Below are positions 3,080-25,377 of a DNA stretch of 64,000 nt, in pieces. A model generated the notes under the pieces. That model was given only the letters and a program-made list of their open reading frames with translations. It had not been told where the DNA came from and did not search any database. The position numbers were made by a program, and so were the translations under genes. Within the stretch, counting starts at the first letter, position 1. Each line of letters begins with the position of its first letter. Origin of the DNA: a virus; UHGV virus genome UHGV-1428848; one strand, written 5' to 3'.

Positions 3080-3230
3080 TAGTAGATAACAACACAAATG
3101 TTAAATATGCACACATACCCTGAGCTAAAGCTTGCGAAAACACACTGCTGGCATCAATACAGATAGTTAAAACACATGCTACTATCCAACAAATAAATGA
3201 AATAACTCCTAATAATTTTGCGATATTCAT
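3072..3230 (-). CDS. small membrane peptide (52 aa) at the position of T4 ac
   Basis: Hand-translated MNIAKLLGVISFICWIVACVLTICIDASSVFSQALAQGMCAYLTFVLLSTND; between stp and gene 52. Confidence 0.4.
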   Translation of the reverse strand: MNIAKLLGVISFICWIVACVLTICIDASSVFSQALAQGMCAYLTFVLLSTND

Positions 3231-3237
3231 ATTTTCC

Positions 3238-3318
3238 TCACTGGCGTCCGAAGACGCCTTTAGTTTTAAGATTATTACGATAGAACTGCATCACGTGTTC
3301 GTTGTGGAAATTACTCAT
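3238..3318 (-). CDS. stp: Stp peptide (26 aa), activator of host PrrC anticodon nuclease
   Basis: Hand-translated [26 protein letters not shown], matching my recollection of T4 Stp; ATG overlaps ndd stop (TAATG). Confidence 0.6.
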
Positions 3319-3776
3319 TAATATGCCTGCAAAACGAATTTAAAATTATCAGCCAACATACGGTTCATTTCTTCAAGTGTTTGATACTCAGAATGATGAT
3401 TACGAGTAAACGCTAAAGCTAACTGTCCTTTTCCAAATCCCGTCGTCAGAGGTTTCATCTTAGAAGCAGGCAGATAAAATACTGCGTATGGAACATTGTT
3501 ATTTGCAATAGTACGTGCAAGCTGAGACCGACGTTGACGAATATGACTTAGAACTGCACTGAATCCTTGCTTAGAACGCTGATTACCTACATAAAATCGT
3601 GCAGACACGCATGGATTACTAAATGGACGACCATCTAATTTACTCACTAAAAAGTAAAATCCAGGTTTAGATAAAAAGTCTTTATGCGGAGTTCCCAAAA
3701 ACCATTCACCGTTCTTGATTGTACCAATAACGGTAGCGCCCGCATTATTCAGATCAGTAGCAGTCATATATTTCAT
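3318..3776 (-). CDS. ndd: Ndd, nucleoid disruption protein
   Basis: 152 aa from ATG at 3776 (SD GAGGAAA upstream); T4 Ndd is ~151 aa; same neighbourhood (stp, denB, rIIB). Confidence 0.75.
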
Positions 3777-22355: not shown

Positions 22356-22565
22356 TTAAATTACATGATTATTTATAATAAATTCTCGCGGAACGTTAAA
22401 ATATCCGATTTTAGTTAATATAACAACATCACCGTTAATAATTACCGGAGAATAATCTTCTGGAGCATTAAACTTCCAATGGGCTCTAATATTATATCCA
22501 TCAGAACCAAATGCTCGACTAGCCGGTCTCCCGGCTTTTTGCCATGCATAAAAATCAAATTTCAT
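22356..22565 (-). CDS. hypothetical protein (69 aa)
   Basis: ORF track. Confidence 0.45.
   Translation of the reverse strand: MKFDFYAWQKAGRPASRAFGSDGYNIRAHWKFNAPEDYSPVIINGDVVILTKIGYFNVPREFIINNHVI
22372..22379 (-). promoter_or_regulatory. T4 late promoter (TATAAATA) upstream of soc
   Basis: Minus-strand TATAAATA ~35 nt upstream of soc ATG; soc is a late gene. Confidence 0.5.
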
Positions 22566-22762
22566 TTTGAATGCTCTATAATTAATTTTAAGGCTTCTTC
22601 GCTGACAAAAATTTCGTCAGGACCTTCTTCTATAACCCAATCAACCATACGAAGTTGATTAGTTAAGAGCTCACATACGAGCTCCTTGTTATAATCTTTA
22701 AATAGCTGGTCAATACGTTTCTTATGGGCTTTCTTAAGCTGACGCTTATTTAAACGAGCCAT
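22562..22762 (-). CDS. hypothetical protein (66 aa)
   Basis: ORF track; ATGA coupling. Confidence 0.45.
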   Translation of the reverse strand: MARLNKRQLKKAHKKRIDQLFKDYNKELVCELLTNQLRMVDWVIEEGPDEIFVSEEALKLIIEHSK

Positions 22763-23280
22763 TAATAACCTCGGTCTTGACGAGCGAAGTTTTCAGCATT
22801 TTTCAGGTAATAAAGTTTAAAGATTTCTTCAGCTGACATTCCAAGAGCAATAAATTTATTCATGAAAAAGTGAAATTGGTCAATCAGTTCAAATTTAATT
22901 TCAAGCTGATCTTCAGGAGATAAATCTTGAATTTTCTTGGATTGCATTTCAGAATAACGTTTCTTCCAAGGTTTCCATACAGCAGAAGCTTCTTTTTCAC
23001 CATTACTCATACCACCAAGAGAAGTATATAGTTCGCGAGTTTCATCTGCGATATAATCGTCTTGGTTTCGCAACCAAGCAAGAACTTCTCCTGCGGTTTC
23101 AAGTGAATCAGGATGACGATTTGTTTCTGGTTTATCATTAGCCAAACGAATCTGTAAATGCCGCTGCATATCAAGCATAACCTGCAGTGGGTCAATATTG
23201 TGCATAATATTCTCAGCATATGCACGATTTGCTTTATCAACACCTTCGATCAAATGAGCACATTCATTAAAGTAAGCCAT
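22762..23280 (-). CDS. 56: dCTP pyrophosphatase (MazG-like dCTPase)
   Basis: 172 aa from ATG at 23280 (MAYFNE...), matching T4 gp56 length; the longer track ORF uses a non-ATG start. Confidence 0.8.
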   Translation of the reverse strand: MAYFNECAHLIEGVDKANRAYAENIMHNIDPLQVMLDMQRHLQIRLANDKPETNRHPDSLETAGEVLAWLRNQDDYIADETRELYTSLGGMSNGEKEASAVWKPWKKRYSEMQSKKIQDLSPEDQLEIKFELIDQFHFFMNKFIALGMSAEEIFKLYYLKNAENFARQDRGY

Positions 23281-23351
23281 TATTTTTCCTTTCAATTCAT
23301 GGGTTAGTAGATTAATTATACAATAAATATATAAAGCAATAAGGAGGACAT

Positions 23352-23406
23352 ATGGTACAAAAATTAATGGCACTTGTTAATGCCATAAAAGGTAATAAAA
23401 ACGTAT
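23352..23406 (+). CDS. micro-ORF (18 aa) with perfect SD, plus strand
   Basis: AAGGAGGA - 6 nt - ATG; MVQKLMALVNAIKGNKNV; only SD-led plus-strand ORF in an otherwise gene-free gap. Confidence 0.25.
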
Positions 23407-23425
23407 AGCTTTTACTATTTCTGCT

Positions 23426-23550
23426 ATGGTAGGAATTTTACTCTGGAACTTTATTTTATCACCAATTGCAATTGCGCATGGTGTTAATATTCCAGTAGTT
23501 ACTCTTGATACATTCGTAGATCTAGCATTTGCTTTAGTTGGGTTAATTTA
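23426..23550 (+). CDS. hydrophobic peptide ORF (41 aa), plus strand
   Basis: MVGILLWNFILSPIAIAHGVNIPVVTLDTFVDLAFALVGLI; no clear SD; frame overlaps the upstream micro-ORF. Confidence 0.2.
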
Positions 23551-24582
23551 AATCTTAGCATATTTAGATAGCCGCATTTTAGCCATCAACCCCTGGGCAA
23601 TATTATTTTTCATATATTCCATAATTTGTTCAGGGGTTGCACCTTCCTTTCTAATCATATCATTGACATCTTTTGATTTCCAGGGAGATTTATCCCAAAA
23701 CATAACCCTTTCTCCTGCATCAACTAATTTAGTCATTCGCTTAATAGTGTCAGGATGACGAGGTTCATTATCTAAAACCCACACACGTCTATCTTTAAAT
23801 GGAACAACTTCTAGGTCTAATTGACCACCTGTAATAGCTATACCATTTTCAATAAAAAGTGAATCTATAGGTCCTTCTAGAACATATACATCACCATCTT
23901 TAACTCGTTCAACACCGTAAATTTTTGTTGCCTCAGGATAAGCTTTAATGGTGATATATTTTTGAGGAGCATCTTTCTTTAATGCACGTCCTTGAAAAGA
24001 CTCAGCTTTTCCATTAGCATTATAAATTGGAATAACAAGACGAGGCTCAGAAATTTCCTTTTTGTATGTTCCCGGTGCTATGCTATTAACTAATTTAGGC
24101 CATTCAGTTGTAAACCAAAGATATTTCCATTTATCCTTTGGAATACAACGAGCTTTTACATATTTTATAATTGGATGGTCTTCCGCCAGTTTATCTAATC
24201 TAACACATGACGGAAGAGATTTAATTATTTTCTTCTCAGGTTGTTTAGGAAGTTCTTTAGGTTTTTCTACTGGACGACTTTTACCTTTTTCTTTTTCTTT
24301 TCTTATTTCAAAGATATACTCACGATATAAATCAGGTTCAAACTCCTTTAAATATATTCCGATTGGTGCATGATAGTTACAGTTATAACAATGAATATTT
24401 CCTTCATTATTATCGCCATAATACCATCCACGGGCTTTATTTTGATCGGTTTTTGAATCTCCACAAACGGGACATCTAAACCGTAATTTAAAAGTTGAAC
24501 TATTATTTACTTGTGCGAATTTAGGTAAATGAGCCAATGCACGGTATGCAAACTCATTATCAATCCAAGGTATTGATGACAT
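23548..24582 (-). CDS. 61: DNA primase
   Basis: 344 aa (T4 gp61 342); zinc-ribbon CPVCGDS...CYNC plus Toprim region. Confidence 0.9.
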   Translation of the reverse strand: MSSIPWIDNEFAYRALAHLPKFAQVNNSSTFKLRFRCPVCGDSKTDQNKARGWYYGDNNEGNIHCYNCNYHAPIGIYLKEFEPDLYREYIFEIRKEKEKGKSRPVEKPKELPKQPEKKIIKSLPSCVRLDKLAEDHPIIKYVKARCIPKDKWKYLWFTTEWPKLVNSIAPGTYKKEISEPRLVIPIYNANGKAESFQGRALKKDAPQKYITIKAYPEATKIYGVERVKDGDVYVLEGPIDSLFIENGIAITGGQLDLEVVPFKDRRVWVLDNEPRHPDTIKRMTKLVDAGERVMFWDKSPWKSKDVNDMIRKEGATPEQIMEYMKNNIAQGLMAKMRLSKYAKI

Positions 24583-24750: not shown

Positions 24751-25377
24751 TTAACCTCTATTCATAAAAGCATTAAAAATTTGGTCATCAATAGAAACAT
24801 CTACTTTAGACTGTTTTTCTGATGGTAATTCATATCCACATATTACAATTTTGTGATCAATATCAAAATACACAGAAGCAATATGATTAATGATGTTTTC
24901 AGTAAAGTCTAAATCAACATCAATATCTTTTTGACCACAGCCCAAAGGATAAATAATGCGAGTAATTCGATTATCTTTAACAAAGATTCCACCGACATAC
25001 TCTGTGCTGCGTTTAAAGTCTACACGCCAACGAAATGAAAAATATTCAGGCTCTTTATGAGCTCTGCTCATAGGACACAACGAGTAACTAGAATAAGAGA
25101 TGTCAAATCCTACGCCTTCAATATGAGCCAAAGTATCATGATTAAACCAATTATAATCGTACGCCAAATCCATTAGATTATAATATGTAAAAGGCACCGG
25201 ATTAACGTCATTAATCACAAGCATGTAATTAGCAACTGCTATAATTTCATTGTTTTTAACGAATACAAACCGTGATTGATGCGAATGACCTGGACCCGCG
25301 TTTTCACGATTAATGATATAACACTGGGCACCTTTATATTTGTATGTATCTTTGCACTTGTGCATTTGATAGAGCAT
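24751..25377 (-). CDS. hypothetical protein (208 aa), gene 61.2 position (candidate AdfA-like anti-DarT factor)
   Basis: Size and position between primase and spackle; functional label is by recalled synteny only. Confidence 0.4.
   Translation of the reverse strand: MLYQMHKCKDTYKYKGAQCYIINRENAGPGHSHQSRFVFVKNNEIIAVANYMLVINDVNPVPFTYYNLMDLAYDYNWFNHDTLAHIEGVGFDISYSSYSLCPMSRAHKEPEYFSFRWRVDFKRSTEYVGGIFVKDNRITRIIYPLGCGQKDIDVDLDFTENIINHIASVYFDIDHKIVICGYELPSEKQSKVDVSIDDQIFNAFMNRG

What the first reader, a model, noticed from the sequence alone, without database searches (positions are those of the whole stretch)
23281..23550. Strand-switched, SD-led micro-ORFs in the gap between dCTPase (56) and primase (61)
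All surrounding genes are on the minus strand, yet this 267-bp gap has no minus-strand ORF. On the plus strand there is a perfect Shine-Dalgarno (AAGGAGGA, 6 nt) before ATG at 23352 (18-aa ORF), overlapped in another frame by a 41-aa strongly hydrophobic ORF (MVGILLWNFILSPIAIAHGVNIPVVTLDTFVDLAFALVGLI) ending exactly at the primase stop. The frames overlap across an A-rich run (AAAAGGTAATAAAAAC), so a frameshift-fused ~60-aa membrane peptide is possible. From memory, T4 carries dam at this locus; here it is absent, so this may be a deletion scar, a replication-origin/regulatory region, or a tiny antisense gene.
Basis: partly seen in the sequence, partly recalled or inferred. Interest (0 to 1): 0.5.

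Follow-up and report, generated by a model that had tools for sequence, protein, structure and literature searches.

The report
Frameshifted small late membrane-protein gene
The two tiny plus-strand ORFs are the two halves of one conserved 66-codon T4-family gene for a small membrane protein, split here by the loss of one A in a run of six; the gene is already catalogued but has no known function.

Summary
The window is a Tequatrovirus (T4-like phage). The 267-bp gap between gene 56 (22762..23280, -) and primase gene 61 (23548..24582, -) carries a plus-strand SD-ATG with an 18-codon ORF, then a 41-codon hydrophobic ORF.

They are not two micro-genes. In about 99% of roughly 690 related phage records, T4 included, the stretch is one 66-codon ORF (PHROG 2024; RB69ORF029w/RB32ORF030w). 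The window lacks one A of an A6 run (23397-23401), which splits the frame.

The intact gene looks genuine:
- dN/dS is 0.06-0.3 in two genera.
- Third-codon positions vary most.
- Orthologues in six named Tevenvirinae genera all sit on the same strand between 56 and 61.
- A strong SD is always present, and a late-promoter-like NATAAATA lies upstream in 11 of 13 lineages.

The predicted product is an N-in, single-pass membrane protein with a conserved C-terminal helix. Its function is unknown.

The A5 allele recurs on different haplotypes (5 records against 279 with A6). That fits slippage at a mutational hot spot, not programmed frameshifting. A sequencing error in this genome cannot be excluded.

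The rest of the gap holds the MotA-type middle promoter of gene 56 and a terminator-like hairpin after gene 61. This is ordinary, already catalogued biology.

The parts
22762..23280 (-). Gene 56 (dCTPase/dUTPase), left flank of the gap
   Evidence: ORF list. Annotated orthologues in UFV-AREG1, RB18 and T4.
23315..23338 (-). MotA-type middle promoter of gene 56: MotA box TGCTTTA (23338..23332), 11-nt spacer, -10 TATAAT (23320..23315). Its T4 counterpart drives the transcript named as the oriA primer.
   Evidence: Pattern TGCTTNA-N10-13-TANNNT: 20 matches against 6.4 expected, and this site is a perfect match. T4 has TTGCTTA-12-TATAAT at the same place. The oriA note is in the T4 record. The MotA-box consensus is from established T4 knowledge.
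23322..23329 (+). Late-promoter-like box AATAAATA (TATAAATA with A at -13). Inferred transcription start near 23335.
   Evidence: ATAAATA is 5-fold depleted in the window (8 against 40.7 expected). Three of the 8 copies (soc and two others) sit about 30 nt before an ATG on the same strand, and a fourth lies before one behind a hairpin. NATAAATA lies 12-33 nt before the ATG in 11 of 13 lineages. A at -13 occurs in 9 of 50 listed T4 late promoters (PMC2988020). The box spans -13 to -6 (PMC1524935).
23341..23347 (+). Shine-Dalgarno AAGGAGG, 4 nt before the ATG
   Evidence: Sequence. A GGAGG or AGGAG core is kept in all 13 lineages examined.
23352..23408 (+). 5' fragment of the gene: codons 1-16 of the ancestral protein, then 2 out-of-frame codons and TAG
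   Evidence: identical to UFV-AREG1 up to the A-run.
23397..23401 (+). A5 run, the site of the 1-nt deletion (A6 or AAGAAA in relatives) that splits the gene
   Evidence: Alignments. Allele counts in the phage collection: A6 279, A5 5, A7 0.
23399..23551 (+). 3' part of the ancestral reading frame (residues 17-66). The callable ORF is 23426..23551 (41 codons), and no SD precedes its ATG.
   Evidence: PHROG 2024 positions 25-65, E 2.3e-19.
23357..23386 (-). Terminator-like hairpin ATGGCATTAACAAGTGCCAT plus T-run, downstream of primase and embedded in the 5' end of the plus-strand ORF
   Evidence: Scan. A terminator is annotated at the same place in Yersinia phage fPS-65. The stem is weak, with 3 GC pairs of 8.
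23548..24582 (-). Gene 61 (DNA primase), right flank. Its stop codon overlaps the stop of the plus-strand ORF (TTAA).

Best explanation
The gap holds a conserved small gene of the T-even phages, on the strand opposite to its early and middle neighbours.

Intact form: 60-69 codons (66 in Tequatrovirus), led by a strong SD. It is most likely transcribed from its own gp55-type late promoter (NATAAATA) about 20 nt upstream.

Predicted product: a short basic amphipathic N-terminus in the cytoplasm, one transmembrane helix (about residues 19-42, with an invariant W-N-F...P...G...P pattern near its outer end), and a conserved acidic C-terminal helix facing the periplasm. I infer that it acts at the cell envelope late in infection. 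An accessory role in lysis timing or another envelope function is my best guess, with low confidence.

In this genome: one A of an A6 run (AAT AAA AAA CGT, N-K-K-R) has been lost by replication slippage. Translation from the SD-ATG therefore stops after 18 codons. The remaining 49 codons, including the membrane helix, lie in the -1 frame. The only start there is an SD-less ATG, which gives the 41-aa ORF. The copy is therefore most likely a null or strongly hypomorphic allele of a dispensable gene.

Status of each step:
- Shown: homology, synteny, purifying selection, the deletion, and its recurrence.
- Inferred: late transcription, topology, function, and loss of function.

The confidence of 0.8 is for the core claim, a frameshift-disrupted copy of a genuine conserved protein-coding gene. 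My rough confidence is 0.7 for late expression, 0.6 for the topology and at most 0.2 for a lysis or envelope role.
For: One gene in relatives:
- UFV-AREG1, RB18 and T4 carry an uninterrupted 201-nt ORF. The only indel against the window is in the A-run.
- tblastn finds the protein in 693 phage records, and 687 of them cover at least 80% of it in one piece.

Real coding sequence:
- dN/dS is 0.06-0.29 in Tequatrovirus, 0.11-0.13 in Mosigvirus, 0.24-0.68 in Gaprivervirus and 0.19-0.32 between genera.
- Variable sites by codon position are 7/2/13 (Tequatrovirus) and 6/0/13 (Mosigvirus). The third-position excess has p = 8e-5.

Deep conservation with fixed synteny:
- A profile search finds relatives down to E 5e-5 to 6e-4.
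- Every one lies on the plus strand between dUTPase-like 56 and primase 61.
- The same holds in Jiaodavirus, Gelderlandvirus and Moonvirus.

Expression signals:
- SD in all 13 lineages and NATAAATA in 11 of 13. The other two have ATTAAATA.
- The motif is depleted 5-fold in the window. Chance of one falling in such an upstream stretch is about 0.002.

Topology:
- Five K/R and no D/E before the hydrophobic core; no K/R and two D/E after it.
- The AF2 model has helices 2-12, 16-42 and 52-63, mean pLDDT 79.7.
- A transmembrane segment at 21-41 was predicted for RB69ORF029w (PMC1524935, Additional file 2).

The frameshift is probably real and recurrent:
- The A5 allele occurs in 5 GenBank phages and several metagenome or SRA contigs, on different haplotypes.
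- Other lesions exist: A7, an A4-to-A3 change in the neighbouring run, and a 2-nt deletion.
Against: - There are no expression data. I found no paper reporting a transcript, ribosome footprints or a peptide for this ORF in T4 or any relative.
- The T4 copy has G and the Gaprivervirus copies C at -13 of the promoter box. Both are less usual than T or A.
- Function is wholly inferred. There is no match in Pfam, NCBIfam, PADLOC or PDB, and no structural neighbour outside the family.
- The C-terminal 18 residues are hydrophobic in Tequatrovirus (KD 2.05), so a two-helix hairpin topology is not excluded.
- A single missing base in a homopolymer can be an assembly error, and the reads are not available.
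Confidence: 0.8

Rival explanations
1. Sequencing or assembly error. The phage really has A6, the 66-codon gene is intact, and the split exists only in the record.
For: The difference is one base in a homopolymer. About 99% of relatives are intact. The rest of the ORF shows no further damage.
Against: The same A5 allele is present in 5 independently deposited phage genomes and in several metagenome or SRA assemblies, with different linked SNPs. A run of 5-6 A is short for systematic Illumina error. A-runs are classical spontaneous frameshift hot spots in T4 (established knowledge: Streisinger slippage, rII hot spots).
Confidence: 0.15
2. The split gene is still expressed. Either a -1 ribosomal frameshift at U AAA AAC (23396-23402) rebuilds a near-wild-type 65-66-aa protein, or termination at TAG 23406 is followed by re-initiation at ATG 23426 to give the 41-aa membrane peptide.
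For: The -1 frame is open from 23399, so a shift on the AAA AAC codons would restore the protein. tRNA-Asn on AAC could re-pair on AAA. Stop and restart lie only 17 nt apart.
Against: The heptamer is not canonical: the P-site tRNA-Lys would re-pair on UAA. No significant downstream structure is predicted (z -0.8). No SD precedes ATG 23426. The arrangement is a rare derived allele. The A-run is absent from T4, RB18, Mosigvirus and Gaprivervirus, so nothing suggests a selected recoding signal.
Confidence: 0.05
3. The plus-strand ORF is not a gene. The stretch is conserved because it carries cis elements: the primase terminator, the gene-56/oriA promoter, and a late promoter making an antisense RNA against primase mRNA.
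For: A minus-strand terminator-like hairpin and the middle promoter do lie in the gap. No plus-strand terminator was found after the ORF, so a late transcript would run antisense into gene 61. Both strands are transcribed at several T4 sites (PMC2988020).
Against: Substitutions follow the plus-strand codon phase and dN/dS is well below 1. Relatives at about 25-30% identity keep an open frame of 60-69 codons, the SD, the basic-hydrophobic-acidic layout and the WN[FY]..P..G..P motif, while the DNA has diverged beyond recognition. Neither RNA strand folds significantly. An antisense role could exist in addition but does not explain these features.
Confidence: 0.05
4. The A6 tract is a contingency (phase-variation) switch. 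It turns the membrane protein off and on in phage populations, and the OFF state is favoured on some hosts or in serial passage.
For: A5 arose repeatedly on different haplotypes, and an A7 allele exists. Two A5 carriers have names suggesting laboratory evolution (T4_ev240; Shinka, Japanese for 'evolution'), though their provenance was not checked.
Against: OFF alleles are only 5 of 284 A-run carriers. The tract is short. About 40% of Tequatrovirus genomes and all other genera break it with synonymous G's or other codons, which is the opposite of conservation of a switch.
Confidence: 0.05

Closest known systems
PHROG 2024 / RB69ORF029w / RB32ORF030w: the hypothetical small protein annotated between genes 56 and 61 in Tevenvirinae genomes
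   Same: Same locus, strand, SD and sequence. The window's 5' part is identical to UFV-AREG1, and the 41-aa part matches profile positions 25-65 at E 2.3e-19. Phages a48 and vB_Eco_T-01 carry the same split allele, with the 41-aa piece annotated as a hypothetical protein.
   Different: The reading frame is interrupted by a 1-nt deletion, so a full-length protein cannot be made by standard decoding.
T4 late genes embedded in early regions and driven by their own TATAAATA promoter (for example soc, 1 kb away in this window)
   Same: A short leader with an ATAAATA box about 20-30 nt before a strong SD and ATG. The soc copy (TATAAATA at 22377..22370) has the same layout.
   Different: soc lies on the same strand as its early neighbours and this gene lies opposite. 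The box has A, not T, at -13. Promoter activity has not been measured.
Small phage membrane proteins of the lysis pathway (holins, antiholins such as T4 RI)
   Same: Small size, one transmembrane helix and presumed late expression. One UniProt entry of the family (phage OE5505) is labelled 'Holin'.
   Different: There is no charged C-terminal tail; the C-terminus is hydrophobic and acidic while the N-terminus is basic. The gene is not next to an endolysin or other lysis gene. T4 already has its holin (t), known from established T4 biology. No profile or structural similarity to any holin family was found.
Spontaneous frameshift hot spots at A-runs in T4 (Streisinger slippage; the rII and e-gene A-run sites)
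   Same: Gain or loss of one A in a run of 6, recurring independently.
   Different: Here it is seen in natural and evolved isolates, not in a selected mutant collection. The mutation rate at this site is unmeasured. The comparison rests on established knowledge, not on a test made here.
Programmed -1 frameshift sites such as E. coli dnaX (A AAA AAG)
   Same: An A-rich shift-prone sequence lies where the two frames meet.
   Different: The heptamer is not canonical, there are no stimulators, and the two-frame layout is not conserved among relatives.

Membership tests
PHROG 2024 (RB69ORF029w-like Tevenvirinae small protein) | Full-length sequence match to the family profile | tested here: met
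   Intact relatives score E 1.5e-31 over profile positions 1-65. The window's 41-aa piece scores E 2.3e-19 over 25-65. The two pieces joined score E 3.1e-22.
PHROG 2024 (RB69ORF029w-like Tevenvirinae small protein) | Position: opposite strand, between gene 56 and primase 61, convergent with 61 | tested here: met
   True in the window and in every relative examined.
PHROG 2024 (RB69ORF029w-like Tevenvirinae small protein) | Uninterrupted ORF of 60-69 codons | tested here: not met
   The 1-nt deletion at 23397-23401 gives 18-codon and 41-codon ORFs. The window therefore holds a disrupted allele of the family, not a functional member.
T4-type late promoter (gp55-dependent) | TATAAATA box at -13 to -6, a short distance upstream of the gene | tested here: met
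   AATAAATA lies at 23322-23329, a 7 of 8 match. A at -13 is the commonest T4 variant (PMC2988020). The box is conserved in 11 of 13 lineages and the motif is depleted genome-wide.
T4-type late promoter (gp55-dependent) | gp55/gp33/gp45-dependent transcript 5' end in vivo | not testable with these tools
   No transcript data were found in the searchable literature.
T4 middle promoter (MotA/AsiA-dependent), minus strand | MotA box TGCTTtA near -30, 11-13 bp before a -10 TAnnnT | tested here: met
   TGCTTTA-11 nt-TATAAT at 23338..23315. The pattern is enriched 3-fold in the window. T4 has the equivalent before gene 56.
Holin | Hydrophilic, highly charged (basic) C-terminal domain after the last transmembrane helix | tested here: not met
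   The C-terminal flank has no K/R and two D/E and is hydrophobic. The basic cluster is N-terminal.
Holin | Located in a lysis cassette, next to an endolysin or spanin gene | tested here: not met
   The neighbours are dCTPase and primase in all genera.
Holin | Membrane-permeabilising, lethal on expression | not testable with these tools
   Needs an expression experiment.
Programmed -1 ribosomal frameshift site | Slippery heptamer X XXY YYZ in the zero frame | tested here: not met
   The zero-frame reading is AAU AAA AAC, so the heptamer is U AAA AAC and the first position does not match.
Programmed -1 ribosomal frameshift site | Stimulatory downstream structure | tested here: not met
   The fold of 23330-23620 (+) has z -0.78, and no stable hairpin lies 5-9 nt after the site.
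Programmed -1 ribosomal frameshift site | The two-frame arrangement is conserved among relatives | tested here: not met
   279 A6 records plus about 217 others are in frame, against 5 with A5. The run is absent in other genera.
Contingency locus (homopolymer phase variation) | Conserved long homopolymer, with ON and OFF alleles both common and interconverting | tested here: inconclusive
   Recurrence of A5 and A7 is seen. However, the tract is short and not conserved, OFF alleles are about 2%, and reversibility is untestable here.

The most novel reading that the evidence does not exclude
An overlooked late gene of T4 itself, unannotated in the reference record at NC_000866 17738..17938 (+), encodes a periplasm-facing single-pass membrane protein conserved across the enterobacterial T-even phages. 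It takes part in a late envelope process such as lysis timing, lysis inhibition or superinfection sensing. Its A-run makes it a recurrent target for loss-of-function, so the window's allele would be a natural knock-out.
Probability: 0.12. Interest if true: 0.6.

Novelty: already known. Interest (0 to 1): 0.22.

Why it matters
For this window the practical result is an annotation fix. The gap should be annotated as one frameshifted (pseudo)gene of the PHROG 2024 family plus a divergent pair of promoters. It should not be annotated as two micro-ORFs, a recoding site or a deletion scar.

More widely, the check exposes a small hole in the reference annotation of the best-studied phage. T4 has this conserved, apparently late, membrane-protein gene but no feature for it. 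A 2006 comparison therefore counted the RB69 copy as 'novel'.

The gene is conserved across six named genera, is under purifying selection and has no known role. It would be an easy target for a knock-out study, and natural A5 alleles supply ready-made null mutants.

Tried and rejected
- Function by homology: no hits in Pfam, NCBIfam, PADLOC, PDB sequence profile, BFVD or PDB fold search beyond the family itself. The afdb50 fold library was unavailable.
- The 'Holin' label on one UniProt entry was rejected on charge layout and gene context.
- RNA element: neither strand of the gap folds better than shuffles (z -1.2 and -0.8). I did not run Rfam because the coding evidence was decisive.
- Programmed frameshift or transcriptional slippage: rejected because the heptamer is non-canonical, there are no stimulators, the allele is rare and derived, and the run is not conserved.
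- Deletion scar of dam: no dam remnant is present. T4 and the window align up to 23320 and again from 23341, with 20 nt here against about 900 nt in T4. The dam-less state is the majority and occurs in other genera.
- Literature: searches for the ORF names, T4 Ribo-seq or small proteins, T4 TSS maps, and the evolved phages carrying A5 found nothing on this ORF. The Miller 2003 T4 genome review is not held.
- The first word-indexed protein search found only close relatives. The alignment query and the exhaustive profile search were needed to reach other genera.

Full report
WHAT IS THERE

The window is a T4-like phage of the genus Tequatrovirus. A 651-nt query around the finding matches 511 phage records, the best at 99.2%. 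No deposited genome is the same phage; the best match over 12 kb is 97.4%.

Gene 56 (dCTPase) occupies 22762..23280 and primase gene 61 occupies 23548..24582, both on the minus strand. They leave a gap of 267 bp with no meaningful minus-strand ORF.

On the plus strand, AAGGAGG (23341-23347) precedes ATG 23352. An 18-codon ORF follows and ends at TAG 23406-23408. A 41-codon hydrophobic ORF runs 23426..23551, and its stop overlaps the primase stop. T4 does have dam at this locus, and the window has no dam.

THE TWO ORFS ARE ONE GENE

UFV-AREG1 and RB18 annotate a single 201-nt plus-strand CDS at this place. RB18 notes it as 'similar to RB69ORF029w; RB32ORF030w'. The sequence is MVQKLMALVNAIKGNKKRIAFTISAMVGILLWNFILSPIAIAHGVNIPVVTLDTFVDLAFALVGLI.

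The only length difference from the window is one A. Relatives read AAT AAA AAA CGT or AAT AAG AAA CGT; the window reads AAT AAA AAC GT, with the run at 23397-23401.

T4 itself carries the intact ORF at NC_000866 17738..17938. It lies between dam and 61, where the reference record has no feature. tblastn finds the protein in 693 phage records, and 687 of them match in one uninterrupted piece.

IS THE INTACT ORF A REAL GENE?

Four lines of evidence say yes.

1. Selection. Nei-Gojobori dN/dS is 0.06-0.29 within Tequatrovirus, 0.11-0.13 within Mosigvirus, 0.24-0.68 within Gaprivervirus and 0.19-0.32 between genera. Variable sites by codon position are 7/2/13 and 6/0/13 in the first two genera. 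The third-position excess has p = 8e-5.

2. Depth. Mosigvirus and Gaprivervirus copies are 46-55% identical. An exhaustive profile search of 1.8 billion representatives finds further relatives at E 5e-5 to 6e-4. tblastn with one of them adds 183 phage records from Klebsiella, Citrobacter, Salmonella and other hosts.

3. Synteny. Every relative whose context I could read lies on the plus strand between the dUTPase-like gene 56 and primase 61. This holds even when other genes have been inserted on either side.

4. Signals. All 13 lineages compared keep a GGAGG or AGGAG Shine-Dalgarno 4-7 nt before the ATG. Eleven also have NATAAATA 12-33 nt upstream, and the other two have ATTAAATA.

The family is PHROG 2024, 'unknown function'.

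LATE EXPRESSION (INFERRED)

TATAAATA at -13 to -6 is the T4 late promoter (PMC1524935). A at -13 occurs in 9 of the 50 listed T4 sites (PMC2988020), and A or T is common there in relatives (PMC1524935).

In the window ATAAATA is five-fold depleted, 8 copies against 40.7 expected. Three of the eight sit about 30 nt before an ATG on the same strand, including the late gene soc, and a fourth lies before one behind a hairpin. One of the eight is AATAAATA at 23322-23329, which puts a start near 23335 and gives a 17-nt leader carrying the SD.

The ORF faces against all early and middle transcription. A late promoter of its own is therefore the simplest way for it to be expressed. No transcript or ribosome data were found.

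THE PRODUCT (INFERRED)

The N-terminal flank has five K/R and no acidic residue. A hydrophobic core follows (best 19-mer 23-41, KD 2.0). The C-terminal flank has two D/E and no K/R.

AlphaFold2 with a 22-sequence alignment gives helices 2-12, 16-42 and 52-63, with mean pLDDT 79.7. Nolan et al. predicted a transmembrane segment at 21-41 for the RB69 copy.

Invariant or nearly invariant residues (W32, N33, F34, P38, G44, P48, V56, D57) cluster at the outer end of the helix and in the C-terminal helix. In distant relatives the C-terminal helix is much less hydrophobic.

I therefore favour an N-in, C-out single-pass protein with a short periplasmic helix.

There is no similarity to any Pfam, NCBIfam, PADLOC or PDB entry, and none to structures outside the family. 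The 'Holin' label on one UniProt entry fails two of the three defining features of holins listed here: the C-terminus is not charged, and the gene is not in a lysis cassette. The third feature, lethality on expression, could not be tested.

My functional guess is a late envelope or lysis-related accessory. That is inference only.

THE FRAMESHIFT

I counted alleles with queries in which every 28-mer seed spans the run. The phage collection holds 279 records with A6, 5 with A5 (Shinka, a48, vB_Eco_T-01, T4_ev240, 4E10) and none with A7. The other roughly 217 Tequatrovirus records break the run with G.

A5 also occurs in several metagenome or SRA contigs. One contig has A7, another lost an A from the neighbouring A4 run, and a T4 mutant clone has a 2-nt deletion.

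The A5 carriers differ at linked SNPs and even in the upstream segment, so the deletion arose more than once. This fits replication slippage at an A-run, the classical T4 frameshift hot spot (established knowledge). It also implies that loss of the gene is tolerated.

The evidence is against a designed recoding signal:
- The run is not conserved.
- The heptamer is U AAA AAC.
- No stimulatory structure is predicted.
- ATG 23426 has no SD.

I cannot exclude that in this particular assembly the missing A is an error.

THE REST OF THE GAP

On the minus strand, TGCTTTA-11 nt-TATAAT (23338..23315) is a textbook MotA-dependent middle promoter in front of gene 56. The pattern is three-fold enriched in the window, and T4 has the equivalent before gene 56. 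The T4 record names that transcript as the primer of origin oriA.

The middle promoter and the plus-strand late box overlap back to back.

A weak hairpin plus T-run at 23386..23357 (-), inside the first codons of the plus-strand ORF, is terminator-like for the primase transcript. A terminator is annotated at the same place in phage fPS-65.

T4 and the window align up to 23320 and again from 23341. The window has 20 nt where T4 has about 900 nt carrying dam. Since 295 of 511 records and the other genera lack dam there, this is a variable cargo site and not a scar.

VERDICT

It is wrong on mechanism: a mutation, not programmed frameshifting or a scar.

The feature is a disrupted allele of an already catalogued hypothetical gene, so novelty is low. 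The residual interest is that the family is conserved, apparently late-expressed, functionally unknown and unannotated in the T4 reference.

Noticed in passing
L003:3239-3439 (= NC_000866.4 17738..17938, + strand): The T4 reference record has the intact 66-codon ORF, with GATAAATA and AAGGAGG upstream, but annotates nothing between dam and gene 61. Nolan et al. 2006 therefore listed the RB69 copy (RB69ORF029w) among ORFs 'novel' to RB69.
   Followed up: yes
window 23320-23341; L003:2327-3225; L019:1-1201; L038:1-377; L007:1872-2621; L032:3192-3966; L034:2454-2937 and 3204-3578: Both junctions of the small ORF are cargo hot spots. On the gene-56 side the content varies: nothing (window), dam (T4), dam plus a 186-aa ORF (fPS-65), a CDS annotated 'putative DpnII restriction endonuclease' (Shinka), or 2-3 small ORFs in other lineages. 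On the primase side there is a homing endonuclease in DK-13 and a 124-aa ORF in L034.
   Followed up: partly
whole window: ATAAATA, the late-promoter core, is five-fold depleted (8 copies against 40.7 expected). Three of the 8 sit about 30 nt upstream of an ATG on the same strand (22376, 49922 and 51178, all -; the first is before soc), and 5925 (-) sits before one behind a hairpin. The MotA-box plus -10 pattern is three-fold enriched (20 against 6.4).
   Followed up: partly
L037 (T4_ev240), L038 (Shinka), L036 (T4_583L): Two of the five GenBank phages with the A5 null allele have names suggesting laboratory evolution. An engineered or mutant T4 clone has a 2-nt deletion in the same ORF. This hints that the gene is dispensable, or even counter-selected, in passage. 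Their provenance was not verified.
   Followed up: partly
L021 (ENA ERZ28587752, GEVE14-1 scaffold_28, 169,953 bp): This metagenome scaffold is identical to the window across the ORF region, including the A5 allele and linked SNPs. It may be the source, or a very close relative, of the window.
   Followed up: no
window 24751-25377 (-) versus L001:4647-5003: The gene after 61.1 differs from close relatives. The window has a 208-codon ORF where UFV-AREG1 has a 118-codon one, and the DNA alignment breaks between window 24796 and 25376. This is another variable segment, in the 61.2 region.
   Followed up: no
L023 (JGI 3300045387 contig, 1412 bp): This contig carries the 5' part of the ORF in inverted orientation joined to the 3' part. 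It is probably a chimeric or fold-back assembly artefact, not a real rearrangement.
   Followed up: no
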